NCBI GenBank assembly: GCA_016867715.1
Contig: VGIW01000001.1
Span: forward strand, 14,141-78,140
Direction of reading: 5' to 3'
From: Candidatus Eiseniibacteriota bacterium
Lineage (GTDB): Bacteria; Orphanbacterota; Orphanbacteria; Orphanbacterales; Orphanbacteraceae
DNA length: 64,000 nucleotides
The position numbers and the translations under genes are program-made. Of this stretch, positions 24,846-50,477 are shown piece after piece. Numbering within the stretch: position 1 is the stretch's first letter; each line of letters opens with the position of its first letter. The notes under the pieces are model-generated. The model saw only the letters and a program-made list of their open reading frames with translations, did not search any database and was not told the DNA's origin.

Positions 24846-24909
24846 AACGATTCTTGCTCGCTCGTGAGCAGAACGGCTCTTGGCCGTCCGCGAGGGGGTG
24901 GATGAACGG

Positions 24910-29387: not shown

Positions 29388-29419
29388 GCCGTTCGGGGTA
29401 GGGGGCGTCTTGCCGATCC

Positions 29420-29448
29420 TTGATGCAACCGGTGTTTTCGAGTATCGT
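29420..29448 (+). promoter_or_regulatory. Weak candidate promoter, TTGATG-17-TATCGT, upstream of the porV-like gene
   Basis: Lower-GC intergenic stretch. An RBS (gagaggag) precedes the ATG at 29481. Confidence 0.25.
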
Positions 29449-29480
29449 TCGCAAATGAAACTTGAGAGGAGTGTCCTACG

Positions 29481-30458
29481 ATGAACGCTGGAGTCCGGAG
29501 CTTGTCGATCGTCCTGATTCTCTTGGTTTGGGGAGCGGGGAGCGCGCTCGCCGTCTCCGACGGAGCGCCCCAATCGATCGCCCCCCTCATGACGCCGAAC
29601 GCCCGCGCGGCCGGTCTCGGGCAGTCGTTCGTCTCGATCGCGGATGACGCGACCGCGTCCTTCTGGAACGCCGGGGGGCTCGCCTGGCAGACGAAGCCGG
29701 ATGTCGTTCTCTACTACTCGAAGCTCGCCGAGGGGCTCGCCGACGACATCTCCTACAACTACCTCGCCTACTCGCGGCCGATGTGGGGCGGGGGCCTCGG
29801 GTTCGGGGTCATCTTCCTCAACCTCGGGGAGTCGGACATCATCGACGAACAGGGGAACATCCTCGGGAACTTCAACTCGTTCGACTTCATCCCGATGGTC
29901 GCGTATGGAGCATCGCTCACCGAGAACCTCGCCTACGGGGCGTCGTTCAAGTTCATCTACTCGCGGCTCTCGCCGCAGATCAAGGAGCTCGGCATCGACG
30001 ACGGGACCGGGATCTCCTTCGGCGGGGACCTCTCGCTTCTCTACCGGATTCCGGGGATCCGCCTGCAGGCGGGAATGATGCTCCAGAACCTCGGGCTCGA
30101 CATCGTGTACAACGATCAGAATCAGCCGGAGGAGCTCCCGCGCAACCTGAAGGCGGGCGTCAGCTGGAGGCCGATCGAGAGCCAGCTGAACAAGTTCCTC
30201 GTCACGACCGAGCTGACGAAGAACCTTGTCTACATGGAAGGGGAGACGATTCTGATGGGGGGGATCGAGTACACGTATTACGACATGGCCTCCGGACGGG
30301 TCGGCTACATCTATGACCGCGAGGGGCATATCGAGGACATGACCTTCGGCGTCGGGCTGAAGGTGAAGTCGATCGGTCTCCGTTTCGATTGGGCTTCGGT
30401 GCCGCAGGCGGAGGACCTTCCGCGCGTGAACCGGTTCGCCATCGGGTTCACCTATTAG
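29481..30458 (+). CDS. porV: PorV/PorQ-family outer-membrane beta-barrel (T9SS cargo shuttle-like)
   Basis: Signal peptide, then ...PNARAAGLGQSFVSIADDATASFWNAGGLA, the family N-terminal motif. Repeated aromatic-Gly strands. C-terminal ...NRFAIGFTY. Confidence 0.6.
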   Translation: MNAGVRSLSIVLILLVWGAGSALAVSDGAPQSIAPLMTPNARAAGLGQSFVSIADDATASFWNAGGLAWQTKPDVVLYYSKLAEGLADDISYNYLAYSRPMWGGGLGFGVIFLNLGESDIIDEQGNILGNFNSFDFIPMVAYGASLTENLAYGASFKFIYSRLSPQIKELGIDDGTGISFGGDLSLLYRIPGIRLQAGMMLQNLGLDIVYNDQNQPEELPRNLKAGVSWRPIESQLNKFLVTTELTKNLVYMEGETILMGGIEYTYYDMASGRVGYIYDREGHIEDMTFGVGLKVKSIGLRFDWASVPQAEDLPRVNRFAIGFTY

Positions 30459-30482
30459 CCCGGGGGAGGGGAGAAGAACCGC

Positions 30483-33400
30483 GTGATCGTTCGGCGCGCC
30501 GTGCGGGGTCTCCTTTTCTTTCTGCTCCCCTCGATTCTCTTCGCCGCCGGCGCGGATGCCGGCGTCCTCCGCGTCGAACGGGCGCGCGAGAGGACCGCGC
30601 CGGAAGCGGCGCGCGCGCCGAGACTCCGGCACTTCCCGGACGTGATCGGAGAAGGGCCTCTCCGGCCGCTTCTCCCCGGTTCCGGGCGTACCTATGCCGA
30701 TCTCCTCAAGTCCCCCGAGGCGGCCCCGTCAACGACGATCCGCGTCGCGGTCTTTCGGATCGAGTTTGAGAACGACTCGGCCGGCGAGGCGACGACCGGA
30801 GACGGGCGCTTTATTCTCGAGGACGACGGCAGCTGGTTCATCGACGCGCCGCCGCACGATTCGCTCTACTTTCACACGCACCTCACGGTGCTCCGGCGGT
30901 ACTACGAGGCGCAGTCGTACGGCAATCTCCGCATCGAGTGGGAGATCTTCCCGAAGAGCCTCGCCGCGGGAGAGTACCGTCTTCACGACACCGCCGACTA
31001 TCTTCCGGCGGGGAGCCCGGACTCGTGGACGATCGACGACCGGGTCGACGGCCTCATCCGGCTTTGCAAGGACGCGCTCGCCCTCGTCGACACGGTCGAT
31101 CCGGGCGTCGTCTTCTCCGCGTACGACGGCTACATGATCATTCACGCCGGACCGGATCTCCAGACCGACATCAACGGGGACTCGCCGGGGGACACCCCGA
31201 GCTTCTTCCTCTCGTTCGGCGACGAGGACTCGGTGGTCGTCGATCGGGATTCTCCCGACTCGGTTCTCGTGCGCGGCGTCACGATGATCCCCGAGTACAA
31301 CAGCCAGGACGGCTTCTCCTTCGGCCTGAACGGCGTGATCGCCCACGAGTTCGGGCATCAGCTCGGGCTCCCGGACCTTTACAATACCGAGCGGAGCTGG
31401 CCCGCGATCGGCGTGTGGGGCCTCATGGACAGCGGCGGCATGATCGCGATCGACGCGGGGGGCGTCTACCTCGGGAGCGTGATCCCCGCGTCTCTTTGCG
31501 CCTGGTCGAAGCTCTATCTCGGATGGGCGACGCCCGAGATCGTGACGACCTCGCGCGATCTCCGGATCGCGTGCGCGACCCTCGCGGATCCTCCCGAGGG
31601 CGCCCCGCGCTATGCGCTCATCCCGCTGAACGACCGGGAGTACTTCCTGATCGAGAACCGGTGCGGGCTCGCCCCGCTCGGCGAGTACGCGGCGAAGCTC
31701 GACACGCTGAACCAGGTAGTCCTCGGCCCCGTGACGAACGACAGTCTCGAGTTGTTCACCGGCGACTACGACTACGCGCTCCCCGGCTGGGGTCTCCTCA
31801 TTTGGCACATCAACAATCGGAAGCTGACCGAAGAGGCGATCCTCTACACGAACGACGTGAACAACGACTACAACAACCGCGCGGTCGAGCTCGAGGAGGC
31901 GGACGGAATCAAGGACCTCGGAAACCCCTACTCGGCCTACTGGGACGGGAGCCCGTACGACCCGTTCTTCGAGGGCAACGCGACGGTCTTCGGGCCCGGA
32001 ACGGCGCCGAACTCCAACCTCACGGACGGCGGGAGATCGCGGGTCACCGTGCGGGGAATCGGAGCGTGGGGCGCGGTGATGGAGCTCGCGGTCGACGTCG
32101 ATCGGAACCTCGCCGGTTGGCCGATCCCGCTTCTCATCGACTCGTCCGCCGCGGCTCCGGAGGGGATCGCTCTCGCGCGGTCGGATGGGGCGGTTCATGT
32201 CGCCGCGTTCTGGACGGCCGGCGACTCGATGGAGGCGCGAAGCGGCGTGACCGTGGCCGCCGCGGAGGAGACGCTCCGCATCGCCCGCGCGGAGCTTCCG
32301 GGCCCTCTCGCGGGGAACGCCCTCGTCGGCGATCTCGTGGAGGAGATCCCGGGCGAGGAGCTCTACGCGATCGCGGGGGGGCGCGTTCTGCGGATCGACC
32401 TCTCGGAGGGGTCTCTCGTTCGCGATCTCGGCGAGGCCCCGAGCGGAGAGGTGAGCGGAGGTCCTCTTCTTCTCGACATCGATGGGGACGGCGTCTCGGA
32501 GATTGTCGTCGCCGCTGGGGAGAGCCTCTTTGTCTACGCCGTCTTCTCGGACTCGATCGCTCGTCTCCGCAGCGATCCGCTTCCCGGGCTCCCCTCTTCG
32601 AACCTAGCCGCGTCTTCGGACGGGGGCGGGGGGCCTCGCGTGTATTTTCTGTCTCAAGGTTCTTTGTACGGGCTCGCGTACGGCGAGAAGACGAGAGCGG
32701 GAAGCGTGCGAGCGAGAGGCGCGTTCGGCGCCTCGGAGGGCTCCGTCCTTCTCGCGGATCTCGACCGGGACGGCGCGCGCGAGATCGTGGTCGTCACGAA
32801 CTCCGGCGCCGCCTACGCCGTGTCGGAGGAAGGAAGGGACCTTCCCGGGTGGCCGGTCTTCCTCGGCAAGGAGCCGACCGGAACGCCCTTCGCGTGCGAT
32901 CGGGACGAGGATGGCTTCCCCGAGATCGCGATCCCCGTCGGCCCCGACCTCGTGCTCCTCGAGAAGAACGGGATTCGGCAGATGGACACTCCACTTCGCA
33001 TCCCGCCGTATCTTCAGAAGGAGCGCATCCTCGCGGGGAACGGCGTGGCCGCGCTTCGGGAGGGGGGCCGCCCGCTCCCGCCGATCGCGGCGGACGACGG
33101 AGGGCGCTTGTGGATGTGGGAGGGGAGGGAGAGGGTCTCTCCCGGCTGGCCCTTCTCGACCGGGACGGCGAACCTCGCCGTTCGCGGCGGGCCCGCCCCG
33201 GGTGGATCGGGGGCGGCTCTCTACGCGCTCTCGCGCGACGGGTTTCTTTATGGGTATCCTTTCGAAGGAGCGGAGGCGAACCGCTTTCTCTGGTGGGGAC
33301 CGGGGGGGAGCCCGGGTGCGAGCTATGCGCTCGCCGATTCGCTTCTCGCGCCGCCGGCTCCGCCCGGCGCGCCTCCGGGACGGATCGTACGCGCGTTCTG

Positions 33401-33644
33401 TTACCCGAACCCGGTTCGCGGGGACCGGGCACTCTTCCGCTACGAGCTTACCGCCGAAGCGAACGTGACGATCGCCGTGCACGATTCGTCGGGGAAGCGC
33501 GTGGCGCGGATCGAACGGGCTCCCGGCGCGCCGGGGGAGAACGAGGTCGCTCTCGACGCGGGGGCGCTCTCGAGCGGCGTGTACACGGTTCGGATCGACT
33601 CGGGCGCGGAACACGAGTTCGTTAGGATGGCGATCATTCGATAG
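30483..33644 (+). CDS. M6-family (immune inhibitor A-like) zinc metalloprotease with beta-propeller-like repeats and T9SS C-terminal domain
   Basis: 1053 aa. Signal peptide. HEFGHQLGLPDLY zinc motif (HExxH, InhA-like). Repeated DxDGDG/VSEIVV FG-GAP-like segments. C-terminal RAFCYPNPVRGD...GVYTVRI CTD. Confidence 0.7.
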   Translation: MIVRRAVRGLLFFLLPSILFAAGADAGVLRVERARERTAPEAARAPRLRHFPDVIGEGPLRPLLPGSGRTYADLLKSPEAAPSTTIRVAVFRIEFENDSAGEATTGDGRFILEDDGSWFIDAPPHDSLYFHTHLTVLRRYYEAQSYGNLRIEWEIFPKSLAAGEYRLHDTADYLPAGSPDSWTIDDRVDGLIRLCKDALALVDTVDPGVVFSAYDGYMIIHAGPDLQTDINGDSPGDTPSFFLSFGDEDSVVVDRDSPDSVLVRGVTMIPEYNSQDGFSFGLNGVIAHEFGHQLGLPDLYNTERSWPAIGVWGLMDSGGMIAIDAGGVYLGSVIPASLCAWSKLYLGWATPEIVTTSRDLRIACATLADPPEGAPRYALIPLNDREYFLIENRCGLAPLGEYAAKLDTLNQVVLGPVTNDSLELFTGDYDYALPGWGLLIWHINNRKLTEEAILYTNDVNNDYNNRAVELEEADGIKDLGNPYSAYWDGSPYDPFFEGNATVFGPGTAPNSNLTDGGRSRVTVRGIGAWGAVMELAVDVDRNLAGWPIPLLIDSSAAAPEGIALARSDGAVHVAAFWTAGDSMEARSGVTVAAAEETLRIARAELPGPLAGNALVGDLVEEIPGEELYAIAGGRVLRIDLSEGSLVRDLGEAPSGEVSGGPLLLDIDGDGVSEIVVAAGESLFVYAVFSDSIARLRSDPLPGLPSSNLAASSDGGGGPRVYFLSQGSLYGLAYGEKTRAGSVRARGAFGASEGSVLLADLDRDGAREIVVVTNSGAAYAVSEEGRDLPGWPVFLGKEPTGTPFACDRDEDGFPEIAIPVGPDLVLLEKNGIRQMDTPLRIPPYLQKERILAGNGVAALREGGRPLPPIAADDGGRLWMWEGRERVSPGWPFSTGTANLAVRGGPAPGGSGAALYALSRDGFLYGYPFEGAEANRFLWWGPGGSPGASYALADSLLAPPAPPGAPPGRIVRAFCYPNPVRGDRALFRYELTAEANVTIAVHDSSGKRVARIERAPGAPGENEVALDAGALSSGVYTVRIDSGAEHEFVRMAIIR

Positions 33645-33667
33645 AGGTGATCAGGAAGGGAGTTCCG

Positions 33668-34507
33668 GTGAGGCGACTACTTTGGTTGTGGATCGCGTGC
33701 GGATGGCTCGCGGCTCCCGTGGCGGGGGCCCCCGGAATCGAGCGGACGCTTCGGTCGGAGATCCGCCGGCTCCCCGCTCCCGCGCGCGAGGAGCGGGCGG
33801 GCGGAGGGCGCGACTCGACCCCGTCGCCGCGCAAGGCGTTTCTCTTCTCGCTCCTCGTCCCCGGGCTCGGGCAGGTCTATTCGTCCGGATGGGATCCGGT
33901 CTCATGGACCTCCGCGCGCGGCCTCGCGTACGGCGTCTTTGAGGCGGTCGCGTGGATCGAGCAGCAGGGGAATCACGGGCGCGGAATGGACATGCAGACC
34001 AAGTACCGCGCGTTCGCGGACGCGAACTGGCACTGGAGCTTGAACGCGTGCACGGTCCTCTATAACGGAGAAGGAGCGATCGACGACGATCCGTTCGCGC
34101 CTGGATATGCGGGCCCGGACGGCGTGGACATCTTCATCGACACGGCGGCGGATTCCCTCGAGTTCTACGAAGACATCCACAAGCTTCAGAAGTGGATCTG
34201 CGGGTGGGACGACTACGCGGACGAGCGATACTTCCAGACCTCCTCGGATGAGACGAACCGCATCTGGTCCACCCCGATGCAGCTGGAATACCGCGCGATG
34301 CGACAGAGGCAGAACAAGCTCATGAGCAACGCGGACCATTGGCTCTGGGCGATCGTCGCGAACCATGTGGTTTCGGCGTTCGACGCCTACTTCGTCGCGA
34401 AGGGGCGCGCGCGGGGCGACGATCTTTCCGCCTTGCCCGCCGTCCGCTTCGGGGGGACAATGACGGGAGACGGCGCGTCGGTCGCCGTCGCGTGGAGTTT
34501 CCGATGA
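33668..34507 (+). CDS. DUF5683-like secreted protein (paralog 1)
   Basis: Signal peptide VRRLLWLWIACGWLAAPVAGA. SPRKAFLFSLLVPGLGQVYSSGW matches the SPxKAxLxSxxxPGxGQ motif. RBS AGGAAGGGA. The family call is from memory. Confidence 0.5.
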   Translation: MRRLLWLWIACGWLAAPVAGAPGIERTLRSEIRRLPAPAREERAGGGRDSTPSPRKAFLFSLLVPGLGQVYSSGWDPVSWTSARGLAYGVFEAVAWIEQQGNHGRGMDMQTKYRAFADANWHWSLNACTVLYNGEGAIDDDPFAPGYAGPDGVDIFIDTAADSLEFYEDIHKLQKWICGWDDYADERYFQTSSDETNRIWSTPMQLEYRAMRQRQNKLMSNADHWLWAIVANHVVSAFDAYFVAKGRARGDDLSALPAVRFGGTMTGDGASVAVAWSFR

Positions 34508-35283
34508 CGGCGCGTCTTCTGCCGATTCTTCTCGCGCTTCTTCTCTTGGTTCCGGACGCGCGGGCGTCCGATCTCGATTCCCATTTTCGCCGTGCGTCGC
34601 GCGCGGAAGCAGACGCGCGCTTCGAGTCCTCCGCGACGGAGAGCGGGGCCGGAACCTCTCTCTCCCCCTCGCGACGCAAGGCGTTCCTTCTCTCGGCTCT
34701 TCTCCCCGGCCTCGGCCAGCGGGCGAACGGCTCGGAGATTCGGAGCCGGGCGTTCTTCGGTTTGGAGGCGATGATCTGGACGAGCTTCCTCGTCTTCAAG
34801 ATCCAAGAACACAACCGGACGAGCGACTTCGAGGAGTACGCGCGGGCGTACGCGGGCATTTCAGAGGGGGAGAGGGAGACCGAGTATTATCGGATCCTCA
34901 CGATCTTCAACAGCGTCGAGGAGTACAACGAAGCGGTCCGCATCGAGGCGCGCGCTCTCTATCCGGTCTCGAGGTACTCGCAAGACACGCGCGACGCGTA
35001 CTACGCGGAGCACGCGTACGGCTCCGATCGTTCCTTCCGGTGGAGGACGAACCAAGATCGTCTCGAGTATCGGCTCATTCGGAACGACGCGCTGAACTCG
35101 GGGCGGCGCGCGAACTACATGCTGGTCGCGGCGGTCGTGAACCGCGCGGTCAGCGCCGTGGAGGCGGCGCGGGCGGCCGGGGCGGGAGGCAAGCTCGCGG
35201 AAGCCGTCACGCATCTTCGCGCGTCCGCCTCCGGCGAGGGGGAGCCGGCCCTTCTCCGTCTGGGCGTCGGGGCGCGCTTCTGA
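34504..35283 (+). CDS. DUF5683-like secreted protein (paralog 2)
   Basis: The ATG start overlaps the previous stop (ATGA). Signal peptide MTARLLPILLALLLLVPDARA. SPSRRKAFLLSALLPGLGQ motif. Confidence 0.5.
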   Translation: MTARLLPILLALLLLVPDARASDLDSHFRRASRAEADARFESSATESGAGTSLSPSRRKAFLLSALLPGLGQRANGSEIRSRAFFGLEAMIWTSFLVFKIQEHNRTSDFEEYARAYAGISEGERETEYYRILTIFNSVEEYNEAVRIEARALYPVSRYSQDTRDAYYAEHAYGSDRSFRWRTNQDRLEYRLIRNDALNSGRRANYMLVAAVVNRAVSAVEAARAAGAGGKLAEAVTHLRASASGEGEPALLRLGVGARF

Positions 35284-35306
35284 ACGCCGCGGAAGAGGAG
35301 CCCCTC

Positions 35307-36218
35307 TTGTCCGATCGTCTCCTTCTCCCGTTCGTCCTTCTTCTCCATCTCGTCTTCCCTGCGCGCGCGGATATCGTCCCCGTGCGCGCGCTCTCGGGAT
35401 CTGCGGACGACGCGGCCCTCTTCTCTCCGCGAGGAATCTCGATCGGCTACGGAGGGCTTCTCTACGTCGCCGACGGCGGGAGCGACCGGATCGTCGTCTT
35501 CGATACGGCGGGCGCGGTCGCTTCGACCGTCGGCTTCTCCGGATCGGCCGGCGGCCGCTTTCTCGAGCCGACGGACGTGGCGGCCGCGGAGGGGCTGCAT
35601 CTCTACGTCCTCGACGCGGGGAACGAACGGGTGCAGCTCTTCGATCGATACGGGCAGTTCCTCGATGTGCTGCTCGATCGCGAGGCGGGGACGATCGGGA
35701 CGCCCCTCGGGCTCGAGGCGGATTCCTTTGGGCGGCTCTACGTGACCGACGCGGAGGCGGACCGGGTGCGGGTCTTTCGATCCTTCACGGGTCAAGAAGA
35801 GTTCTCGTTCGGCGGGTTCGGGACCGAGCCGGGTCGCTTCCGAGGGCCCGCCGACGCGTCGGTCGATCGCTCGCGCCGAATCTACGTCGCCGATCGAGGG
35901 AACAATCGTGTGCAGGTCTTCGATCCGCTCGGCGGTTTTCTCCGCTCGATCGGAGAAGGGGAAGGATCCGCGCGGCTCTCCGGTCCGACGGGGGTCGCGG
36001 TCGACCGGAAGGGGAGGGTCTTCGTCGCCGATGGGGGGAACGCGCGGGTGGTCGTCTTCGACGAGGCGGGGGGCTTCGCAGGCGAGATCCGGGAGGGAGT
36101 CGGCGGAAAGCCGCTCGTCTCTCCTCGCGGCGTGGCGGTCGACGACGCGGGTCTCCTCTACGTCTCCGACCCCGCCGGGGGGCTCGTTCATCTCTTCCGA
36201 TACGGGGCCGCCCCGTGA
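35307..36218 (+). CDS. NHL-repeat (six-bladed beta-propeller) secreted protein
   Basis: TTG start with RBS GGAAGAGGAG. Signal peptide. Six repeats of the type G..LYV.D.GN.RV.VFD (e.g. RIVVFDTAG, RVQLFDRYG, RVRVFRSF, RVQVFDPLG, RVVVFDEAG, LVHLFRYG). Confidence 0.7.
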   Translation: MSDRLLLPFVLLLHLVFPARADIVPVRALSGSADDAALFSPRGISIGYGGLLYVADGGSDRIVVFDTAGAVASTVGFSGSAGGRFLEPTDVAAAEGLHLYVLDAGNERVQLFDRYGQFLDVLLDREAGTIGTPLGLEADSFGRLYVTDAEADRVRVFRSFTGQEEFSFGGFGTEPGRFRGPADASVDRSRRIYVADRGNNRVQVFDPLGGFLRSIGEGEGSARLSGPTGVAVDRKGRVFVADGGNARVVVFDEAGGFAGEIREGVGGKPLVSPRGVAVDDAGLLYVSDPAGGLVHLFRYGAAP

Positions 36219-36256: not shown

Positions 36257-39200
36257 ATGCGGCCGATCTTGGCGCTTCTTCTCGCCTCGGTCCTTGTCCG
36301 TCCGGCCCTTGGCGAAGGGAAGGCGCTTCTCAGCGAGAAGACCTACCGCCTCGGGTACGCGTCTGTTCTTCTCACTGGGGAAGATCGAGCCGGCCCGTAT
36401 CTCCTTCCGCACCGTCCGATCCTACTGGGATCGGAGACCGTTCTTCTTCATGGACGAACCATCGAACGTGAAACGGACTACTGGATCCGCTACGACCGGG
36501 GCGAGATCGTCTTCGCCGCGCCGCTCGTCGCGGGCGACGGGGCGGAGATCCGATACCGTCATCTCCCGCTCCCCCTTCCGTTGGAACGCTCCCTTCATCC
36601 CCTCCGCCTCGCGGAAGGAGAGGAGGAGACGGTCCTTGCCCCGCGCCCGCGCGCGGCGATGGCCGGACCCCTCGACACCGGCGCGCTCCGGGTCGGCGGG
36701 AGCAAGTCCTTCTCCGTTCTGATCGGTTCGGACCGCGCGCTCACGCTCGAGCAGGCGCTCCGTGTGAGCGTGACGGGGAACCTCGCGCCGGATGTTCGCG
36801 TCACCGCGCAACTCACTGACCAGAACCTCCCCTTTCAGGCGGAAGGGAGATCCGAACGGCTCGAGCAGCTCGATCAGGTCCTCGTGCGCGTCGAGTCGCC
36901 GCGCTTCGACGCGACGCTCGGCGACTACGAGATGCGCTTCGCGGAGACCGAGTTCGGCCGCTACGACCGGGCCCTGAAGGGGGCGCTCGGCCGGTGGAAG
37001 GGGAAGGGCTACGAGCTCGAGGGATCGGGCGGCCTTTCGAAGGGGACGTATCGATCGGTGGAAATCCGCGGGGTGGACGGGAAGCAGGGCCCCTACGCGC
37101 TCCTCGGCGTCTCCGCGCTCGGGCAGATCGTCGTCGCGGGGAGCGAGCAGGTTTGGGTCGACGGCGAAAAGGCGACGCGCGGCGACGGCAACGACTACGT
37201 GATCGACTACTCGGAGGGGGCGATCACGTTCAATCCGGCACGGAGGATCTCCTCCGACAGCCGCATCGCGGTCGATTTCCAGACGACGGGGGACGAGTAC
37301 CGCCGGAGCTTCGCCGCCGGCCGATTCCGCGTCGGGGGCGAGGGGGAGCGCTTCACGCTCGGCGGCGTGCTCCTCTCCGAGGGGGACGACGCGGACCAGC
37401 CCGAGGCGCTCGTTCTGGACGACGCGGACTACGACTCGCTTCGCGCCTCCGGCGATCGGAGGCCGCTCGGATCGACGGCGCGTTTCCTGGGAGCGGGGGG
37501 CGACTACGACACGACGGGCGGGGTCTTCGTCTACGCCGGACGGGATTCGGGGGACTTCGCGGTCTCCTTCCGGGAGGTCCCCGCCGGAGAAGGAACCTAC
37601 GTCGATTCGATCTCGGAAGTTTGGGGTCAAAGGATCTTCGTACACGTCGGCGAGGGGAAGGGAAACTACGAGCCGACCGTTCCGGTCCCGCTCCCTTCCT
37701 CCCACAAGCTCTTCGCGCTCGGCGGCGCGGCTTCTCCCATCCGCGGTTTCCGCCTCGCCGGAGAGGCGGCATGGAGCGATCTCGATCGAAACGTGCTCTC
37801 CCCGATCGACGACGAGGAGAACGCTGGGCGGGGGCTTCACCTCTCTCTCAGTTTGTCCGAGACGCTCCTTCGGCTGAAGGGGGCCGAGGTCGGTTCGCTC
37901 GATCTCGCGGGGAGTCGCCGGAGCGTGACGGAACACTTCGAGCCGCTCGGCCGCTACCGCGAGCCGCATCGGGACGGCCGATGGATGACCGCCGATCTCC
38001 GGCGCGCGATCGGTCCCGGAAGACAGGCGGACGACCGAATCGGAAGCGGCGAAGCCTTCGCCTCCCGGGGCGCGGAGACGACAACGCTGGCATCCGGAAT
38101 GTTCCGTCGAGGGACGCCGATCGGAAGGATGGCCTTCTCCGGTGAAGGGGGGGAACTCGACGCGGAGGGGTTCCTGTCGAAGCGCTGGTCCTGGAGCGGC
38201 GCGTTCGAGGATCCGAAACGATACCGCGCCGCGTACGGCGAGGAACGGATCGCGAGCGAAGAGGGCGATTCCCTTCAAGGAGAAACGATTCAGCGGAACA
38301 CGGAGGCGTCGGTTCGCCTGTCGATCGTTCGGCCGTCCATCCGCGTGACGCGCGCGCGCCGGACCTTCGATCGGGAAGGCTTGCCGTTTCGGGGGACGCG
38401 GGATCGGGACGAGCGAATCGGCCTCTCGGTCGCGCGCGGGACGCTCGAGGCGGAGGGCGCGGTGACGTTTGAAGAGAGGGACTACGTCGACTCCGCGACT
38501 TCTCTCTGGGAGCGATGGTACGAGGGGCGGACGGACGAGACGAGTCTCCGTTGGAGGGGGCCGGTCAGCGTCGGCGCCGAGTACGCGCACCGCACGCTCG
38601 TCTACGGCGAGACGGCGCCTGAGGGGAGTCGGGGAAGCGATCTCGGGAGGCTCGAGCTCCGTCACGGCGGCTTCGGCGGGATCGTCCAGGGGAGCTGGGA
38701 CTACCAGGTGACGGCCGAGGAGCGGAAGTCCCGTCGCCGGCTCCTTCTTCGAGCCCCCGCCGGGCAGGAGGCCGACTACGACAGCCTGGGCAATTACTTT
38801 CCAGGTGAAGGCACGTTCAACCAGGTGATCGTCGAGGGGGACGCGGAACCGGTGATCGATCTCGAGGTCGGCGCGACGATCCGGGTCGAGCCGGCGAGAA
38901 GGCGCGGAGGCGCCGGCGGCGGATGGTGGGAGGGTATCGGGTCGGAGACGTTCGTGCGCGTTCGGGAGCGGACGACGACCGGCGATCGGGCGGGGCTTCT
39001 CCTTCTTCGGCCCGGCGCCTTCCAGAGAAACGACGTCACGCTTCGGGGGAGCACCGTGCTTCGACAGGAGCTTCGCTGGACCGATCCGCGGTCGGAGGGG
39101 AATCTTCGCGTCCGGTTCCAGAGGGAAGACCGCGAGGAGAACGAGTACGCGAACTTGAACCGGGACGATCTCGTCCGCACGTGGCTCGTTCGGGGGAAGG

Positions 39201-39670
39201 CTCCTCTCGGGGAGCGCCTCGCCGGCGAGATCGAGTGGAGCCGCCGCCTGGAGGAGGAACGATCGAACGACGACCGTGCGGTCGATCTCACGGGGGACGA
39301 TTGGAAGGCGACGCTTCTCTTCGACCCGGCGCCGCGCCGCCGTTTCCAACTCCCCGTCGCTTACCAGAGCGAGCGGGAGGCGGTTCGGGGGGAATCCGTG
39401 AGGTCGGTGCGGATCGAGCCGGAGGCGGCTCTCAACCTCGCCTCGAGGAGCCGTCTCGACGCGGGGTTCGTATGGACCCGTTTCCTCGAGGAGGATTTGG
39501 ATCGCTCGGGTTCGTTTCTTCGCAATCGAAAAGAAGGGATCCGTTGGCGTCTCCAATTCGCATATGAGTGGAACACCGTCCTCTCCTCGACCGTCGCCTA
39601 CAGCGGGGAGAACTTGAAGGGCGAAGAGATCTCGCAGCAGTTCCGGGCCGAGATGAGGGCGTTCTTCTGA
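36257..39670 (+). CDS. Large (1137 aa) secreted hypothetical protein, predicted outer-membrane/beta-rich; TamB-like or TpsA-like partner candidate
   Basis: Signal peptide MRPILALLLASVLVRPALG. Gly/Arg/Asp-rich with no recognised catalytic motif. The C-terminus ...QQFRAEMRAFF ends in aromatic Phe, a beta-signal-like feature. Its stop overlaps the next gene start. Confidence 0.6.
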   Translation: MRPILALLLASVLVRPALGEGKALLSEKTYRLGYASVLLTGEDRAGPYLLPHRPILLGSETVLLHGRTIERETDYWIRYDRGEIVFAAPLVAGDGAEIRYRHLPLPLPLERSLHPLRLAEGEEETVLAPRPRAAMAGPLDTGALRVGGSKSFSVLIGSDRALTLEQALRVSVTGNLAPDVRVTAQLTDQNLPFQAEGRSERLEQLDQVLVRVESPRFDATLGDYEMRFAETEFGRYDRALKGALGRWKGKGYELEGSGGLSKGTYRSVEIRGVDGKQGPYALLGVSALGQIVVAGSEQVWVDGEKATRGDGNDYVIDYSEGAITFNPARRISSDSRIAVDFQTTGDEYRRSFAAGRFRVGGEGERFTLGGVLLSEGDDADQPEALVLDDADYDSLRASGDRRPLGSTARFLGAGGDYDTTGGVFVYAGRDSGDFAVSFREVPAGEGTYVDSISEVWGQRIFVHVGEGKGNYEPTVPVPLPSSHKLFALGGAASPIRGFRLAGEAAWSDLDRNVLSPIDDEENAGRGLHLSLSLSETLLRLKGAEVGSLDLAGSRRSVTEHFEPLGRYREPHRDGRWMTADLRRAIGPGRQADDRIGSGEAFASRGAETTTLASGMFRRGTPIGRMAFSGEGGELDAEGFLSKRWSWSGAFEDPKRYRAAYGEERIASEEGDSLQGETIQRNTEASVRLSIVRPSIRVTRARRTFDREGLPFRGTRDRDERIGLSVARGTLEAEGAVTFEERDYVDSATSLWERWYEGRTDETSLRWRGPVSVGAEYAHRTLVYGETAPEGSRGSDLGRLELRHGGFGGIVQGSWDYQVTAEERKSRRRLLLRAPAGQEADYDSLGNYFPGEGTFNQVIVEGDAEPVIDLEVGATIRVEPARRRGGAGGGWWEGIGSETFVRVRERTTTGDRAGLLLLRPGAFQRNDVTLRGSTVLRQELRWTDPRSEGNLRVRFQREDREENEYANLNRDDLVRTWLVRGKAPLGERLAGEIEWSRRLEEERSNDDRAVDLTGDDWKATLLFDPAPRRRFQLPVAYQSEREAVRGESVRSVRIEPEAALNLASRSRLDAGFVWTRFLEEDLDRSGSFLRNRKEGIRWRLQFAYEWNTVLSSTVAYSGENLKGEEISQQFRAEMRAFF

Positions 39671-41403
39671 TGCGCGCATGGTCGATCGCACTCTGGTGGC
39701 TTCTTTCCGCTTCGCTCGCTCTCGCGTCGGAGCGGCCGATCGAGTCGGTCGAGGTGCGGGGGGCGGGGGCGCTCTCCCGTTCCGAGATCGAGGCCGTTCT
39801 CGCCCTCCGGAAAGGGGAGATCTGGAACGCGGAGATGGAAGGGGCGGCGGCCGATCGGCTCCTCGCCGCGTACGCGGAGAGAGGACATCTCGACGCGGAG
39901 GCGCACATCCGGGTGGTCGAGGATGGAGAGGGGTTGCGTCTCACGGTCGATGTCCGCGAGGGGCCTCGGGTTCCGATCGCGAGCGTCGACGTTCGAGGGG
40001 CGGAGGTATTCGAGAAGGAAGAAATCGAGGGACGCCTCGACACGCGGCCGGGCCGAACGCTTGAGGTATCGAAGCTTGAGGCGGATATCGATCGGCTCCT
40101 CCGAGCCTATGCGAGAGCGGGTCATCCCTTCGCGCGTGTGCTCCTCGGCGAGATCGGGCGGGAGGACGAGGGCGGTCTCGATGTCGCCTTGCGCGTCGTG
40201 GAGGGTCCTTTTCTCATCCTCGGCGACCTCCGCGCGCGGGGAAACGAAAAGACGAAGAGCCGGACGATCCGAAGGCTGACCGGCCTTCGCTTCGGCGATC
40301 CGTACGACCAGGACGCGGTCGACGCCTCCCGCGCGAGGCTCCTTCGCAGCGGTCTCTTTCGAACGGTCTCCGAGCCGTCGGCGCGGATCGATTGGAAGAA
40401 GAAGGAAGCGGTGGTCGAGATCGAGGTGGAGGAGGCGCGCGCGAACCGAATCGCCGGGGCGATCGGATACGCCCCGGGACCGCAGGGGGAGGAGGGGATT
40501 ATCAGCGGTCTCGTTGATGTCGAGTTCCGCAACATCCTCGGCACGGCGCGGAAGGGGGGAGCGCGTTGGGAGCGGCCCTCGCGCGAGACGCGGCTGGTCC
40601 GTCTCTTTTATCGGGAGCCGTGGCTTTTCGGGAGTCCGTTCGCCGTCGGAGGCGATCTCGCGCAGGACATCCGGGATTCGACGTACGCGCGCATCTCGGG
40701 CGGGCTTTCGGCGGATGTCGATCTCTCGCGCCGCGTCTCGGCGTCCTTCTCGGTCGGGGTCGAGACGATGCGGCCCCGCCGCGATTCGAGCCCGATCCCG
40801 CGAAGCACGAGAAGGCGAGGCGGCGTGGGGATCGTCTTCGAGGGACGGGATCTCCCCTTGAACCCGACACGCGGGGTCTTTCTTCGCGTCGGCTCCGAAT
40901 ACGGGGAAAAGAAGATCGAGGAGGAGCCGGAGCGCGGGATCCCGGGGGAACAGGCGCGGCAGGCGACTTTCGACTGGGGGATCGGCCTCTACCGGGGGCT
41001 CGGGCCGCGAACGGTGATCGCCTGGGAGTCGTTCGGGATTGGACGGTTCAGCAATGAAATGTATGTCCCCGCGTACGATCAGTTCTATCTGGGGGGCGCG
41101 CGCACGCTCCGAGGCTACGAGGAAGATCAGTTCCGCGGGGCGCGGGTCGCGTGGACGCGTCTCGAATACCGGTATCTCCTCGGGGCCCTTTCGCGCGTCT
41201 TTCTCTTCGCGGACGGGGGGTACGTGTTCGCGGGGCGGATGGAGGAGGAGAGGTCGGTCTCTTCGGAGACGACGAAGATCGGGTACGGGTTCGGGATCCG
41301 AGTCGATTCGCCGATCGGTCTTCTCGGGGTGGACTACGGGCTTGGGGAAGGGGATCGTCCCGGCGAGGGGAAGATCCACGTGAGCGCGGAGGGGGATTTC
41401 TAG
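39670..41403 (+). CDS. tamA: Omp85-family outer-membrane protein, TamA-like (3 POTRA + D15 barrel)
   Basis: 577 aa. The ATG start overlaps the previous stop (TGATG). Signal peptide. POTRA-like repeats (ESVEVRGAGALSRSEIEAVLALRKGEIWN...). C-terminal surface-antigen barrel ending ...GKIHVSAEGDF. Confidence 0.75.
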   Translation: MRAWSIALWWLLSASLALASERPIESVEVRGAGALSRSEIEAVLALRKGEIWNAEMEGAAADRLLAAYAERGHLDAEAHIRVVEDGEGLRLTVDVREGPRVPIASVDVRGAEVFEKEEIEGRLDTRPGRTLEVSKLEADIDRLLRAYARAGHPFARVLLGEIGREDEGGLDVALRVVEGPFLILGDLRARGNEKTKSRTIRRLTGLRFGDPYDQDAVDASRARLLRSGLFRTVSEPSARIDWKKKEAVVEIEVEEARANRIAGAIGYAPGPQGEEGIISGLVDVEFRNILGTARKGGARWERPSRETRLVRLFYREPWLFGSPFAVGGDLAQDIRDSTYARISGGLSADVDLSRRVSASFSVGVETMRPRRDSSPIPRSTRRRGGVGIVFEGRDLPLNPTRGVFLRVGSEYGEKKIEEEPERGIPGEQARQATFDWGIGLYRGLGPRTVIAWESFGIGRFSNEMYVPAYDQFYLGGARTLRGYEEDQFRGARVAWTRLEYRYLLGALSRVFLFADGGYVFAGRMEEERSVSSETTKIGYGFGIRVDSPIGLLGVDYGLGEGDRPGEGKIHVSAEGDF

Positions 41404-47599: not shown

Positions 47600-48888
47600 A
47601 GGAGCGCTGCGAGCTTCTCATTCGGAACATCGCCTGTCTCGTGACGGCGGCGGGCGGAAAGCCGGGACCGCTTTCGAACCCGGCGTGGGGCGATCTCGGG
47701 ATCGTCGAGAACGGAGCGATCGCGATCCGCCGCGGGAAGTTCGTCGCGGTGGGAACGACGGCGGACGTCGAGAGCCGCGTCTCGATCACGCCGAAGACGA
47801 AGACGCTTTCCGGCCGCGGGCGGCTCGTGCTCCCCGGTTTCATCGATCCGCACACGCACTTCCTCTTCGTGGGGACGCGCGAGGACGAGTACGCGATGCG
47901 CGTGGAGGGGGTGGACTATCTCGAGATCCGCCGAAGGGGAGGAGGGATCCGGAAGACGGTGCGCGCCTTCCGCGCGGCAAGTGACGAGGAGCTTCTCGAC
48001 GCGGGCCGAAGGCGTCTCGATTCGTTCCTCGCGTACGGAACCACGACGGTGGAGGGGAAGAGCGGGTACGGGCTCACGACGGATCAGGAGATTCGCGCGC
48101 TTCGATTGATGGCGCAGCTGAACGAAGCGCACCCGATCGAGATCGTGCCGACGTTTCTCGGGGCGCACGAGATCCCCGAGGAGTACGAAGGGCGGACCCG
48201 GGACTACGTCCGGCTCGTCATCGACGAGATGATTCCCCGCGCCCGCGGTCTCGCGCGCTTCTGCGACGTCTTCTGCGAGAAGGGGGTCTTCGAGATCGAG
48301 GAGTCGCGCGCGATCCTCGAGGCGGGGAAGCGGCACGGGCTTCTTCCCAAGCTGCATGCCGAGGAGTTCGTCTCGATCGGCGGAGGCGAGCTCGCGGCGG
48401 AGGTCGGAGCGGTCTCGGCGGATCATCTCCTCGCGGTCACGGAAGAGGGATGCGCCCAGATGGCGAGAAGCGGAACGATCGCGATCCTTCTCCCCGGAAC
48501 CGCGATCGGGCTCGCGAAGAGAGCCTTCGCCGACGTGGAGCGGATGCGAAGGAACGCGCTTCCGATCGCGCTCGCCACCGACTGCAATCCCGGAAGCTCG
48601 TTCACCGAGTCGATGAGCGTGGTCCTCTCGCTCGCCTGCTCGCTCGAGGGGCTCACGCTCCCCGAGGCGATCCTCGGGGCGACGCGAAACGCCGCCGCCG
48701 CGCTCGGCCTTCTCGATTCGATCGGGACGATCGAGGCCGGAAAGAAAGCGGACTGCATTCTTCTTCGCGCGACGCACCCCGCGGCGATCCCGTACCGCTT
48801 CGGAACGAACCTCGTCGAGACGGTCGTGAAGAACGGGCTCCCGATCCGCCGCCGCCGCCGCCCGAACCTCGTCGGACCGACCGTGTAG
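47596..48888 (+). CDS. hutI: Imidazolonepropionase
   Basis: The GTG start overlaps the hutU stop (GTGA). ...[13 protein letters not shown]...EGKSGYGLT...KLHAEEF...[12 protein letters not shown] 45988-48888 is an artifactual extension. Confidence 0.88.
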
Positions 48889-48970
48889 CTCGGATCCCGC
48901 GCGCGTCCTGGCGACGGAAACGCGTGCAGGATCCGAGCGAGAGCCTCCTCGCTCGCTTTCGATTTCTTCC
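48888..48970 (+). terminator. Tandem hairpins / candidate intrinsic terminator after hutI
   Basis: GCTCGGATCC...GGATCCGAGC (10-bp arms, 48888-48938), then GAGCGAG-agcctc-CTCGCTC followed by the T-rich gctttcgatttcttcc. Confidence 0.45.
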
Positions 48971-49118
48971 GCACATTCGTCTTTCCTGTCCCATCGGTCG
49001 GCCCGCGAGGCGACGTGCGGTCAAGGAAAGGCCGGGACGGCCGAAACTCGTTCTAGACAAGGAGAAACAAGGGGGCGGCCGCCCTCCTCTGGATCGGTCC
49101 ACCCGGCGGGAGAGACCC

Positions 49119-50477
49119 TTGGCGTCGAATTCCGAGATTCTCAAGAAGGCGAGGGATTGCGAGAGGAGGGGGGACTTCGACGGCGCGGCGTACGAGTACC
49201 GGAAGCTGGCCGAATCGGACCCGTGCCCACCGATCGCCTGCAACCTTCTCGGCGATCTCTACCATCGCAAGGGGGAGCCGGACGACGCATACGGATGGTA
49301 CCAGAAGGCGGTCGACCGCTACTCGCAGGAAGGTCTCTTCGGGAACGCGATCGGCGTCTGCCGCAAGATGCTCCGCCAGTATCCCCACCGGATCCATGCG
49401 ATCGAGCAGCTCGGCGCTCTCTTCTTCTCTCAAGGTCTCGCGCGCGAGGCGGTCAAGCACTACATGGTCTACGCTGCTCGGACGGCGGAGATCGGCGACG
49501 CGGAGGCGGTTCTCCGCACGGGCGGGCGCGTCCGCGAGATCCTGGCCGGCGACCCGGAGGTCCGCGAGCGGCTCGGCGAGATCTTCCTTGCCCTCTCGCT
49601 TCCGGACGAGGGAATGGTCGATCTTCGGGCCGCGTTGCAAGGCTATCGGGACGCGGGAAGAATTGCGGACGGGGACCGGATCGCGACCCGGCTTCACGAG
49701 CTCGAGAGGAGCGAACGCACCGATCCCCTTTCCCTTCTGAACGAAGGGGAGGCGCACGCACCCCTCGATCTCGTTCCTCCGTGCGCGCCGTCCGCTTTCC
49801 CTCCCGCCGGTGAGGAAGCCTTCGAGAGCCTCGACCACAGCCGGGCCGAGCCGGCCCCGCGGCCGATCGGCCGGGAGGTCCTGCCGCGCTCCTCCTCTCT
49901 GCGGGAGGGAAGGCCCGTCCGCGACGAGGCTCTCCGGCCGGTCGCGCCGCGCCCTCCGGTTTCCGAAGACGAGGTCGAGCTTCTCCCCCTCGAACGCGCG
50001 CGGCCCGCCCCCGAGCCGGATATGGGGCCCTTCGCGGCGCCCGCTCCCCGCGACGCGGACTTCGTGCCGGTCGAGGAGATCCTCCGCGAGTTCCAGAACG
50101 GCGTCAGCAAGATCATCGGGAAGGAGGACTACCAGTCCCATTACGACATGGGGATGTCCTACAAGGAGATGGGGCTTCTCGAGGAGGCGCTCGCCGAGTT
50201 CGAGAAATCCGCCGCCTCGCCGGAGCTTCGCTCCTCCTCGGACGAGATGCGCGCCGCGGTCCTTCTCGATCTCGGGCGCTACGAGGAATGCGTACGCCTG
50301 CTCGAGGGTCTTCTCCCTCTGGAGACGGAGGAGGGCCTCGGGATTCGCTTTCTTCGCGGCCTCGCCTATGAGAGACTAGGAAACGAGGATCGCGCGCTTC
50401 GCGAGTTCCGCCTCGTCGAGGAGCGGGATCCCGAGTTCCGCGATGTGCGCGCGAGGATCGCGCGCATGTCGGCTTAG
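49119..50477 (+). CDS. TPR-repeat protein
   Basis: The TTG start is inferred, with gggagag upstream. The N- and C-terminal TPR-like helices are separated by a Pro/Ala-rich linker. Confidence 0.55.
   Translation: MASNSEILKKARDCERRGDFDGAAYEYRKLAESDPCPPIACNLLGDLYHRKGEPDDAYGWYQKAVDRYSQEGLFGNAIGVCRKMLRQYPHRIHAIEQLGALFFSQGLAREAVKHYMVYAARTAEIGDAEAVLRTGGRVREILAGDPEVRERLGEIFLALSLPDEGMVDLRAALQGYRDAGRIADGDRIATRLHELERSERTDPLSLLNEGEAHAPLDLVPPCAPSAFPPAGEEAFESLDHSRAEPAPRPIGREVLPRSSSLREGRPVRDEALRPVAPRPPVSEDEVELLPLERARPAPEPDMGPFAAPAPRDADFVPVEEILREFQNGVSKIIGKEDYQSHYDMGMSYKEMGLLEEALAEFEKSAASPELRSSSDEMRAAVLLDLGRYEECVRLLEGLLPLETEEGLGIRFLRGLAYERLGNEDRALREFRLVEERDPEFRDVRARIARMSA

What the first reader, a model, noticed from the sequence alone, without database searches (positions are those of the whole stretch)
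36257..41403. Translationally coupled pair: 1137-aa predicted outer-membrane protein and TamA-like Omp85 (inverted TAM-like or TPS-like module)
The 1137-aa gene has a signal peptide, a Gly/Arg/Asp-rich beta-type composition, no recognisable enzymatic motif, and a C-terminal ...AEMRAFF ending in Phe like an OMP beta-signal. It ends with its stop overlapping the ATG (TGATG) of a 577-aa Omp85 protein. That protein has ~3 POTRA repeats plus a D15 barrel, the same size and architecture as TamA. Canonical TAM loci are ordered tamA then tamB, and TpsB/TpsA pairs are usually ordered B then A. Here the large partner comes first, and I cannot recognise AsmA/TamB (DUF490) or TPS-domain motifs by eye. This may be an uncharacterised Omp85-dependent assembly/secretion pair. 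Its position at the end of the T9SS/OM-protein island (C25-PorV-M6-DUF5683x2-NHL) makes a functional link to surface-protein biogenesis plausible.
Basis: partly seen in the sequence, partly recalled or inferred. Interest (0 to 1): 0.65.

Follow-up and report, generated by a model that had tools for sequence, protein, structure and literature searches.

The report
Giant outer-membrane barrel with dedicated Omp85
The 1137-aa gene encodes a member of a large, unnamed family of very big outer-membrane beta-barrels (about 36-40 strands, the size of the type IX secretion pore SprA), and in this lineage it sits in a fixed operon with type IX secretion genes and its own BamA-like Omp85, so it is neither a TamB-like nor a two-partner-secretion protein.

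Summary
A 1137-aa ORF (36257-39670, signal peptide, ends in F) overlaps by one base (TGATG) a 577-aa Omp85 with 3 POTRA domains (39670-41403).

The TAM-like or TPS-like interpretation is not supported. AlphaFold2 folds the large protein as one huge beta-barrel (pLDDT 85.7, pTM 0.76). A relative with 20% identity gives the same fold. No TamB/AsmA, TPS, LptD or SprA_N domain was detected.

The protein belongs to an unannotated family of about 6200 clusters at 50% identity. Every named member comes from FCB-group bacteria (Eisenbacteria, LCP-89, Latescibacterota, Ignavibacteria).

SprA chains are the best PDB fold match for both models, but the superposition is poor. Sequence similarity to SprA is limited to two ~50-aa modules.

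In 12 further Eisenbacteria-type loci plus the window, the order PorU-PorV-CTD protease-DUF5683 x2-NHL propeller-barrel-Omp85 is conserved wherever the contig reaches. Across the 13 held loci with the pair (window included), 9 keep the stop/start overlap. In 74 other loci, 72 of them Ignavibacteria-type, the barrel has no Omp85 or NHL neighbour.

Best reading: a SprA-sized channel assembled by a dedicated Omp85 and probably acting in CTD-protein export. The function is inferred, not shown.

The parts
36257..39670 (+). ORF A: 1137-aa precursor of a giant outer-membrane beta-barrel from an unnamed family
   Evidence: ORF. No Pfam family. 73 close homologues, all named hypothetical. 6200 family representatives. 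AF2 pLDDT 85.7, pTM 0.76.
36257..36313 (+). Signal peptide, aa 1-19 (MRPILALLLASVLVRPALG)
   Evidence: Sequence. Helix 2-13 in the AF2 model. Cleavage site assigned by eye; no predictor was run.
36353..36562 (+). N-terminal small beta module, aa 33-102. This is copy 1 of the SprA/DUF2460-like module.
   Evidence: AF2 strands 33-102. It matches SprA profile positions 604-650, F. johnsoniae SprA 689-736 and SprA 671-718 by hhalign at E=3.8e-4.
36578..36679 (+). Low-confidence, poorly conserved linker, aa 108-141
   Evidence: pLDDT below 50. No consensus in this stretch of the alignment.
36686..39667 (+). Beta-barrel region, aa 144-1137: about 36-40 long strands, mostly joined by 2-8-residue turns, ending in the beta-signal-like ...RAEMRAFF
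   Evidence: DSSP of the AF2 model. The same layout appears in P0070 at 20% identity. C-terminal F in 204 of 216 family members.
36812..36877 (+). The most conserved stretch of the family, LTDQNLPFQAEGRSERLEQLD (aa 186-207). Residues 190-197 are modelled below pLDDT 50.
   Evidence: Invariant D188, G197 and L202; P192 and D206 nearly invariant. pLDDT below 50 at residues 190-197.
37070..37297 (+). Insert 1 in the barrel, aa 272-347. This is copy 2 of the SprA/DUF2460-like module (GKQGPY...AGSE.VW.DG...RG..NDYVIDYS.G.ITF).
   Evidence: TIGR04189 SprA E=3.5e-5, residues 292-341 against profile 604-651. 35 of 44 members hit TIGR04189. The same stretch hits TIGR02217 phage distal tail protein.
37403..37699 (+). 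Insert 2 in the barrel, aa 383-481: a helix plus short strands, with the conserved motif GDY...DSG.Y.V.F
39668..39672 (+). TGATG stop/start overlap between ORF A and ORF B
   Evidence: Conserved in 9 of 13 loci that carry both genes.
39670..41403 (+). ORF B: 577-aa Omp85-family protein, BamA-like, with a signal peptide, 3 POTRA domains, a 16-strand-type barrel and an RGY loop-6 motif
   Evidence: Pfam POTRA x3 and Omp85. TIGR03303 BamA 161 bits; TamA 45 bits. RGY at residue 481 and C-terminal F.
35319..36218 (+). NHL-repeat beta-propeller with a signal peptide and no CTD. It is the most consistently linked neighbour of ORF A and a candidate periplasmic partner or plug.
   Evidence: Pfam NHL E=2e-36. 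It lies directly upstream of ORF A in L001, L002-L004, L006, L009-L013, L015 and L016; in L014 ORF A is cut at the contig start.
24906..29387 (+). PorU-like C25 peptidase: propeptide, C25 domain and C-terminal FlgD_ig/CTD-like domain. First gene of the conserved block.
   Evidence: Synteny.
29466..30458 (+). PorV (T9SS shuttle barrel)
   Evidence: Pfam PF19572 E=1.3e-14. Conserved position.
30459..33644 (+). M6-like metallopeptidase with FG-GAP repeats and a T9SS C-terminal sorting domain; a conserved T9SS cargo of the block
   Evidence: Conserved position.
33647..35283 (+). Two consecutive DUF5683 proteins (33647-34507 and about 34504-35283)
   Evidence: Both are conserved in the Eisenbacteria-type loci.

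Best explanation
ORF A is the precursor of a very large single-chain outer-membrane beta-barrel of about 36-40 strands, the size class of the T9SS translocon SprA but without SprA's roughly 150-kDa cap. It belongs to a large unnamed family whose named members are all from the FCB superphylum.

Shown: the fold class, the family, the conserved gene order and the conserved stop/start overlap.

Inferred:
1. ORF B, a BamA-like Omp85 paralogue with three POTRA domains made in fixed proportion from the same message, is the dedicated insertase for this unusually large barrel. The barrel carries the usual C-terminal ...F beta-signal.
2. The signal-peptide-bearing NHL propeller encoded just upstream binds the barrel on the periplasmic side. 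A barrel this wide with only short loops needs something to close it, as LptE closes LptD and Plug closes SprA.
3. In this lineage the barrel always follows PorU, PorV and a CTD-bearing protease in one co-directional block. It therefore most likely serves as a large-bore conduit in the outer-membrane step of CTD-protein export or attachment, with PorV as carrier and PorU as sortase.
For: Fold: AF2 gives pLDDT 85.7 and pTM 0.76, with about 40 long strands from residue 144 to the C-terminus. P0070, at 20% identity, gives the same layout with pLDDT 82.6 and pTM 0.74.

Fold matches: Foldseek ranks SprA chains first for both models (E=1.9e-11 and 3.2e-12). For the second model all four top hits are SprA, about 40-fold to 9000-fold better in E-value than the next family, SusC.

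Sequence link to SprA: two ~50-aa modules hit SprA profile positions 602-651. 35 of 44 family members hit TIGR04189, best E=3.4e-11.

Beta-signal: C-terminal F in 204 of 216 members.

Family size: 6200 representatives at E<=1e-3 and 2632 at E<=1e-30, almost all of the 150 listed being 1050-1240 aa.

Synteny: PorU-PorV-M6(CTD)-DUF5683 x2-NHL-ORF A-Omp85 is kept, as far as each contig reaches, in the window, in L002-L004 and L009-L016, and on the P0069 contig. These span ORF A identities of roughly 33-92%. LCP-89 keeps NHL-ORF A-Omp85 at 27% identity.

Coupling: the stop/start overlap is kept in 9 of 13 loci and the rest have 1-4 nt spacing.

ORF B: a complete Omp85 with POTRA x3 and the RGY motif, but below both the BamA and TamA cut-offs, so it looks like a paralogue rather than the housekeeping BamA.

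Against: In 72 Ignavibacteria-type loci and two others, the gene sits among housekeeping genes (NUDIX, PfkB, MtnA, RecO, DegP, AroC) with no Omp85, NHL or PorV within 10 kb. The family therefore does not need a neighbouring Omp85 and is not generally tied to T9SS genes.

Published surveys report SprA hits in Ignavibacterium and Melioribacter and in all FCB phyla except Chlorobiota (PMC11705866, PMC12611786). The family therefore probably coexists with canonical SprA.

I could not read model coordinates, so the strand count and barrel closure rest on the DSSP string alone.
Confidence: 0.45

Rival explanations
1. The barrel is a housekeeping outer-membrane channel or envelope-biogenesis component with no role in T9SS, for example in lipid, LPS or polymer export or in uptake. 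In Eisenbacteria-type genomes it simply lies in an outer-membrane gene island next to PorU/PorV. ORF B still assembles it.
For: In 74 Ignavibacteria-type and related loci the gene is single-copy and sits in a conserved housekeeping array: NUDIX in 61 of 74, then PfkB, MtnA, RecO, DegP and AroC, with no T9SS, NHL or Omp85 neighbours. LCP-89 and L006 keep NHL-ORF A without PorU/PorV. The family is very large and well conserved.
Against: Across Eisenbacteria-type loci with ORF A identities of roughly 33-92%, the barrel stays in one tightly packed, co-directional block with PorU, PorV and a CTD cargo. The only sequence and fold links to a characterised protein are to SprA. There are no LptD, OstA, TolC, Wza or TonB-plug signatures.
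Confidence: 0.3
2. ORF A is the true SprA/Sov orthologue of these lineages: a minimal T9SS translocon that has lost, or never gained, the extracellular cap.
For: SprA is the best PDB fold match for two divergent members. The strand number is similar. SprA-type modules are present. The gene sits in the porU-porV operon.
Against: TIGR04189 scores 21 bits against a cut-off of 200, and SprA_N (PF14349) does not hit. Six consensus fragments covering the barrel strands and insert 2 hit nothing in the SprA model. hhalign against 29 SprA sequences aligns only 48 columns at 36% probability. Ignavibacteria carry this family and are reported to have separate SprA hits (PMC11705866).
Confidence: 0.08
3. 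One reading: an inverted TAM-like pair (TamB-like plus TamA-like) or a two-partner secretion pair (TpsA plus TpsB).
For: ORF B has TamA-like size and three POTRA domains, and gives weak ShlB and POTRA_2 hits. The two genes are tightly coupled.
Against: ORF A has no DUF490/AsmA or TPS domain at E<=1. It has a cleavable signal peptide rather than an inner-membrane anchor. It folds as a closed barrel with a beta-signal, not as a beta-taco groove or beta-helix. ORF B scores 161 bits on BamA against 45 bits on TamA.
Confidence: 0.03
4. ORF B is not only an assembly factor but a permanent subunit. The giant barrel and the Omp85 would form a stable two-barrel machine, as in SprA-PorV or BamA-BamG, in which the POTRA domains hand substrates to the large pore.
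For: Fixed-ratio co-expression through the conserved overlap. The Omp85 is kept only where NHL and the barrel are also linked. Multi-barrel complexes are known in FCB bacteria (PMC12611786, PMC10994853).
Against: Most family members have no adjacent Omp85. There is no interaction evidence, and a multimer model could not be run because the pair exceeds the 1200-residue limit.
Confidence: 0.12

Closest known systems
SprA/Sov, the T9SS outer-membrane translocon (36-strand barrel; PDB 6H3I, 8GL8)
   Same: A single-chain giant barrel of similar strand number. Restricted to the FCB superphylum as far as named members show. Best Foldseek match for both models. Shares a ~50-aa module, present twice in ORF A. 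Genomic association with PorV and PorU.
   Different: Half the length (1137 against about 2400 aa) and no large cap. No SprA_N domain, and TIGR04189 scores far below its cut-off. The barrel sequence is not alignable. Global superposition is poor (TM 0.23-0.29). It probably coexists with canonical SprA in Ignavibacteria.
Predicted 38- and 40-strand outer-membrane barrel superfamily (families 002 and 003) of Solan et al., PNAS 2021 (PMC8346858)
   Same: Sequence- and contact-map-predicted single barrels larger than SprA, with no assigned function. The size class matches the DSSP count here.
   Different: That paper's accessions and taxa were not available to me, so identity with this family is untested. 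The paper does not report a PorU/PorV or Omp85 operon in the text I could read.
LptD-LptE (barrel plus plug, assembled by BAM)
   Same: A large barrel whose lumen is closed by a separately encoded soluble partner. It depends on an Omp85 for insertion. It is the analogy for the NHL-plus-barrel idea.
   Different: No LptD/OstA domains. LptD has 26 strands and an N-terminal jellyroll. The partner here is an NHL propeller, not an LptE fold.
TamA-TamB (TAM) and TpsB-TpsA (two-partner secretion)
   Same: An Omp85 with few POTRA domains encoded next to a large partner.
   Different: The partner here is itself an integral barrel, not a periplasm-spanning groove or a secreted beta-helix. ORF B is closer to BamA than to TamA or ShlB by score.
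BamA (TIGR03303)
   Same: ORF B aligns with BamA POTRA3-5 plus the barrel (residues 90-557 against profile 230-719) and has the RGY loop-6 motif and a C-terminal F.
   Different: Three rather than five POTRA domains. 161 bits against a cut-off of 297. It is encoded in a lineage-specific operon rather than a housekeeping BamA context.

Membership tests
SprA/Sov T9SS translocon | Full-length match to TIGR04189 at or above the 200-bit cut-off | tested here: not met
   21.1 bits, and only residues 292-341 match. Six consensus fragments covering the barrel strands and insert 2 give no hit.
SprA/Sov T9SS translocon | SprA_N domain (PF14349) | tested here: not met
   No hit at E<=1. Genuine SprA proteins all carry it.
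SprA/Sov T9SS translocon | About 2300-2500 aa with a large extracellular cap | tested here: not met
   1137 aa. The median of 216 family members is 1145 aa. Loops are mostly 2-8 residues.
SprA/Sov T9SS translocon | 36-strand single barrel | tested here: inconclusive
   DSSP gives about 36-40 strands in two models. Coordinates were not readable, so an exact count and barrel closure were not verified. SprA is the top Foldseek hit, but TM is 0.23-0.29.
SprA/Sov T9SS translocon | Binds PorV at a lateral opening and conducts CTD substrates | not testable with these tools
   Only gene adjacency to porV and porU is available.
TamB/AsmA-like | DUF490/TamB or AsmA domain, an N-terminal membrane anchor and an elongated beta-taco fold | tested here: not met
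   No Pfam hit at E<=1. A cleavable signal peptide and a closed-barrel secondary-structure pattern.
TpsA (two-partner secretion passenger) | N-terminal TPS domain (PF05860) and a beta-helix | tested here: not met
   No hit. AF2 shows antiparallel hairpins up to a C-terminal beta-signal.
LptD | LptD (PF04453) and OstA/LptD_N (PF03968) domains | tested here: not met
   No hit at E<=1. LptD is only a mid-rank generic barrel hit.
Omp85 superfamily (ORF B) | POTRA repeats plus an Omp85 barrel with an RG(Y/F) loop-6 motif | tested here: met
   POTRA x3 at E=1.8e-29 and Omp85 at E=6.1e-25. RGY at residue 481.
BamA equivalog (ORF B) | TIGR03303 at or above 297 bits, with five POTRA domains | tested here: not met
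   161.3 bits, three POTRA domains.
TamA (ORF B) | NF047950 at or above 625 bits | tested here: not met
   45.5 bits, covering the C-terminal 110 residues only.
Solan et al. 38/40-strand barrel superfamily | Sequence membership in their families 002 or 003 | not testable with these tools
   No supplementary files are held for that paper.

The most novel reading that the evidence does not exclude
The eight-gene block PorU-PorV-CTD protease-DUF5683 x2-NHL-giant barrel-Omp85 is a self-contained, compact type IX-like export and attachment cassette. In this reading the ~38-strand capless barrel, plugged by the NHL propeller, is a second class of CTD-protein translocon distinct from SprA, and it comes with its own insertase. 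If the strand count holds, it would also be a single-chain barrel larger than any solved so far.
Probability: 0.15. Interest if true: 0.85.

Novelty: new variant of a known kind. Interest (0 to 1): 0.6.

Why it matters
Single-chain barrels of this size are very rare; SprA, at 36 strands, is the largest solved. How the BAM machinery builds them is an open question. This family has thousands of members, a barrel of SprA size and almost no decoration. In one lineage it is hard-wired to a private Omp85 and to PorU/PorV.

That offers two things. First, a natural client-and-insertase pair for studying giant-barrel assembly. Second, a candidate missing or alternative outer-membrane conduit for type IX secretion in FCB phyla outside the Bacteroidota, where the system is poorly defined.

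If the barrel proves to be only a housekeeping channel, it is still a large, widespread, unannotated outer-membrane family that deserves a name and a structure.

Tried and rejected
1. Pfam and NCBIfam scans on ORF A found no TamB/AsmA, TPS, LptD or SprA_N domain.
2. A profile search of PDB sequences gave only a faint SprA module hit at E=0.67.
4. I tried to obtain SprA using a 48-aa SprA peptide. It returned only short gene fragments and cost one search. I recovered SprA through a frameshifted sprA locus and then 120 Flavobacteriaceae SprA sequences.
5. hhalign of the family against one SprA sequence and against 29 SprA sequences aligned only the 48-column module. The lower-ranked alignments were not significant.
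6. A fragment-wise scan of the family consensus against NCBIfam matched only the two small modules.
7. An HMM of the SprA alignment found no SprA in any held locus except L008.
8. The afdb50 fold library was not available.
It was rerun with 14 sequences.
10. The literature search for DUF5683 found nothing useful.
11. Identity with the published 38/40-strand families could not be checked because no supplements are held.
12. A multimer model of ORF A with ORF B or NHL was not attempted.

Full report
**Observation**

The window holds a 1137-aa ORF at 36257..39670 on the + strand. Its N-terminus, MRPILALLLASVLVRPALG/EG, reads as a cleavable signal peptide. The protein is rich in R, G, E and D, has no cysteine, and ends ...RAEMRAFF. 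The stop codon TGA (39668-39670) shares its A with the ATG (39670-39672) of a 577-aa ORF that ends at 41403. The wider window is ordinary chromosome. It carries nadA, a nuo operon, accA, ligA, hutH/hutU, a TPR protein, sugar-nucleotide genes, pilB/pilC and a PAS kinase with a sigma-54 regulator.

**What the large protein is**

It matches no Pfam family at E<=1 other than a chance-level hit. This rules out detectable TamB/DUF490, AsmA, TPS, LptD/OstA and SprA_N domains. A homology search found 73 full-length relatives of 1050-1240 aa. All are labelled hypothetical and come from Candidatus Eisenbacteria, Latescibacterota, "Gemmatimonadetes" and LCP-89 MAGs.

A profile of 67 of these sequences, searched against 1.84 billion cluster representatives, found 6200 proteins at E<=1e-3 and 2632 at E<=1e-30. 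The 150 listed are nearly all full length. This is therefore a large, unnamed family.

AlphaFold2 with that alignment gave a confident model (mean pLDDT 85.7, pTM 0.76). It contains:
- a small N-terminal beta module (residues 33-102);
- a low-confidence linker (108-141);
- about 40 long beta-strands from residue 144 to the last residue, mostly joined by 2-8-residue turns;
- two inserts (272-347 and 383-481).

A second model, of P0070, has the same plan (pLDDT 82.6, pTM 0.74). P0070 is only 20% identical and shares the gene context seen in the Ignavibacteria-type loci. Allowing for bulges that DSSP splits, the count is roughly 36-40 strands. I could not read coordinates, so the exact number and barrel closure are not verified. 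The C-terminal residue is F in 204 of 216 family members, as expected for a BAM beta-signal.

**Relation to SprA**

By sequence, 35 of 44 family members hit the NCBIfam SprA model (best E=3.4e-11). Scanning the family consensus piece by piece shows that only the two ~50-aa modules match, both to SprA profile positions 602-651. The six fragments covering the barrel strands and insert 2 match nothing in the SprA model. The same modules weakly resemble phage distal-tail and DUF2460 proteins. One family member also carries a precomputed hit to PF09343; from memory this accession is DUF2460, which I did not check. A profile-profile comparison with 29 genuine SprA sequences aligns 48 columns (E=3.8e-4, probability 36%) and nothing else of significance. 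ORF A therefore fails the membership tests for SprA, while sharing a module and a size class with it.

**Gene neighbourhood**

I collected 88 loci and labelled their neighbours with profiles built from the window's own proteins.

- *Eisenbacteria-type.* The window, 12 other loci (L002-L004 and L009-L016; L002 and L003 are near-duplicates) and the P0069 contig keep the order PorU-PorV-M6(CTD)-DUF5683-DUF5683-NHL-ORF A-Omp85 as far as each contig reaches, usually followed by a GNAT and ligA. ORF A identities run from roughly 33% to 92%.
- *LCP-89.* The genome keeps NHL-ORF A-Omp85 at 27% identity.
- *L006.* Only NHL-ORF A is kept.
- *Coupling.* In the 13 held loci with both genes, window included, the ORF A stop and the Omp85 start overlap as TGATG/TAATG in 9 and lie 1-4 nt apart in the other 4.
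- *Ignavibacteria-type.* Seventy-two such loci, including Ignavibacterium album and Melioribacteraceae, plus two others, carry the barrel gene with no Omp85, NHL or PorV within 10 kb. There it sits in a housekeeping array: NUDIX in 61 of 74, then PfkB, MtnA, RecO, DegP and AroC.

The barrel family is thus broad, the NHL link is wider than the Omp85 link, and the Omp85 and PorU/PorV links are specific to one group of lineages but very stable within it.

**The Omp85**

ORF B scores best on the BamA model (161 bits, aligned to POTRA3-5 plus the barrel; cut-off 297). It scores much lower on TamA (45 bits, cut-off 625) and only marginally on ShlB. It is a complete, probably functional Omp85 that is neither a standard BamA nor a TamA. 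"TamA-like" describes its length and POTRA number only.

**Mechanism**

Shown:
- a secreted protein predicted with confidence to be a very large barrel with a beta-signal;
- a large family whose named members are all from FCB-group bacteria;
- a conserved operon and a conserved translational overlap with an Omp85.

Inferred:
1. The Omp85 is a private insertase, or a stable partner, for a client that is unusually hard to fold.
2. The NHL propeller, secreted to the periplasm and lacking a CTD, docks on the barrel. A barrel of this width with such short loops needs a closure, as LptE provides for LptD and Plug for SprA.
3. Because it is locked into a PorU-PorV-CTD cargo operon, the barrel acts in the outer-membrane step of CTD-protein export or attachment.

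I put about 0.9 on the structural class, about 0.5 on dedicated assembly by ORF B, and about 0.3-0.35 on a T9SS-linked conduit role.

The main rival is a housekeeping channel unrelated to T9SS, which the Ignavibacteria context favours. A true minimal-SprA orthologue is unlikely. Ignavibacteria have this family, and published surveys also report separate SprA hits there (PMC11705866). SprA is also reported in all FCB phyla except Chlorobiota (PMC12611786). I could not test co-occurrence directly.

**Prior knowledge**

SprA is described as the largest known barrel (bioRxiv 10.64898/2026.03.07.710327; PMC10994853). Solan et al. 2021 (PMC8346858) predicted, from sequence and contact maps, a superfamily of 38- and 40-strand barrels of unknown function. 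This family may be part of it, but their accessions were not available to me. I found no description of the operon with PorU/PorV, NHL and a coupled Omp85.

**Verdict**

The TAM/TPS interpretation is wrong in kind. What is there is a giant-barrel outer-membrane protein of an unnamed family found so far in FCB-group bacteria, with a dedicated BamA-like Omp85, embedded in a T9SS attachment operon. It is a new variant of known kinds (giant translocon-type barrels and Omp85 client pairs). It is of moderate to high interest, and its function is still to be established.

Noticed in passing
window 24906-36218, and L002-L004, L009-L016: An eight-to-ten-gene block (PorU-like C25, PorV, M6/FG-GAP protein with T9SS CTD, two DUF5683 proteins, NHL, giant barrel, Omp85, often a GNAT, then ligA) keeps the same order across MAGs whose barrel proteins are only about 36-50% identical. 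One specific CTD cargo, the M6-like protease, is a fixed part of it.
   Followed up: partly
window 36812-36877 (ORF A aa 186-207): The most conserved stretch of the whole family, LTDQNLPFQAEGRSERLEQLD, has several invariant residues. Residues 190-197 are modelled as a low-confidence loop (pLDDT below 50) in both AF2 models. It may be a partner- or ligand-binding site.
   Followed up: no
window 36353-36562 and 37070-37297: The same ~50-aa beta module (..GS..V...G..L..G.DY.IDY..G.I.F) occurs twice in ORF A and in SprA. It also weakly matches phage/GTA distal-tail (TIGR02217) and tail-tube models. Its role in SprA is not described in the papers I could read.
   Followed up: partly
L017-L088, L005, L007: In Ignavibacteria-type loci the barrel gene is followed by a conserved NUDIX-PfkB-MtnA-RecO-DegP-AroC array. 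In 29 loci it is preceded by MacB/FtsX-type ABC transporter genes (HlyD, ATPase, two or three permeases) on the same strand.
   Followed up: partly
L009 (JAGUYC010000318.1): The closest genome match to the window (92% identity over ORF A, same gene order) is deposited as a 'Gemmatimonadetes bacterium' MAG (DeMMO4_6). The next relatives are labelled Candidatus Eisenbacteria, so the label of one or the other is probably imprecise.
   Followed up: no
window 35040-36218: The longest NHL ORF starts at a GTG that adds an Arg/Gly-rich ~90-aa extension. The orthologues (297-346 aa) and the signal peptide (LLLPFVLLLHLVFPARA/DIV) indicate a start near 35310-35330. Several long overlapping ORFs on both strands in this GC-rich region are not genes.
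   Followed up: partly
window 48450-50477: A 675-aa TPR-repeat protein lies downstream of hutU. The T9SS component PorW/SprE is, from memory, a TPR lipoprotein. No specific relation was tested.
   Followed up: no
window 2557-4488: Long ORFs on both strands (503 aa on +, 644 aa on -) between the radical-SAM/MiaB-like gene and nuoA have no Pfam hit and do not show the clear GC3 coding signature of neighbouring genes.
   Followed up: no
window 5496-7355: The nuo operon has a fused NuoC/NuoD gene (30-kDa and 49-kDa domains in one 619-aa product).
   Followed up: no
L008 8400-15134: A Flavobacteriia-type sprA in a 453-kb metagenome contig is split into several ORFs (74-1656 aa). This is probably from indel errors in a long-read assembly. 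It was used only as a source of SprA sequence.
   Followed up: no
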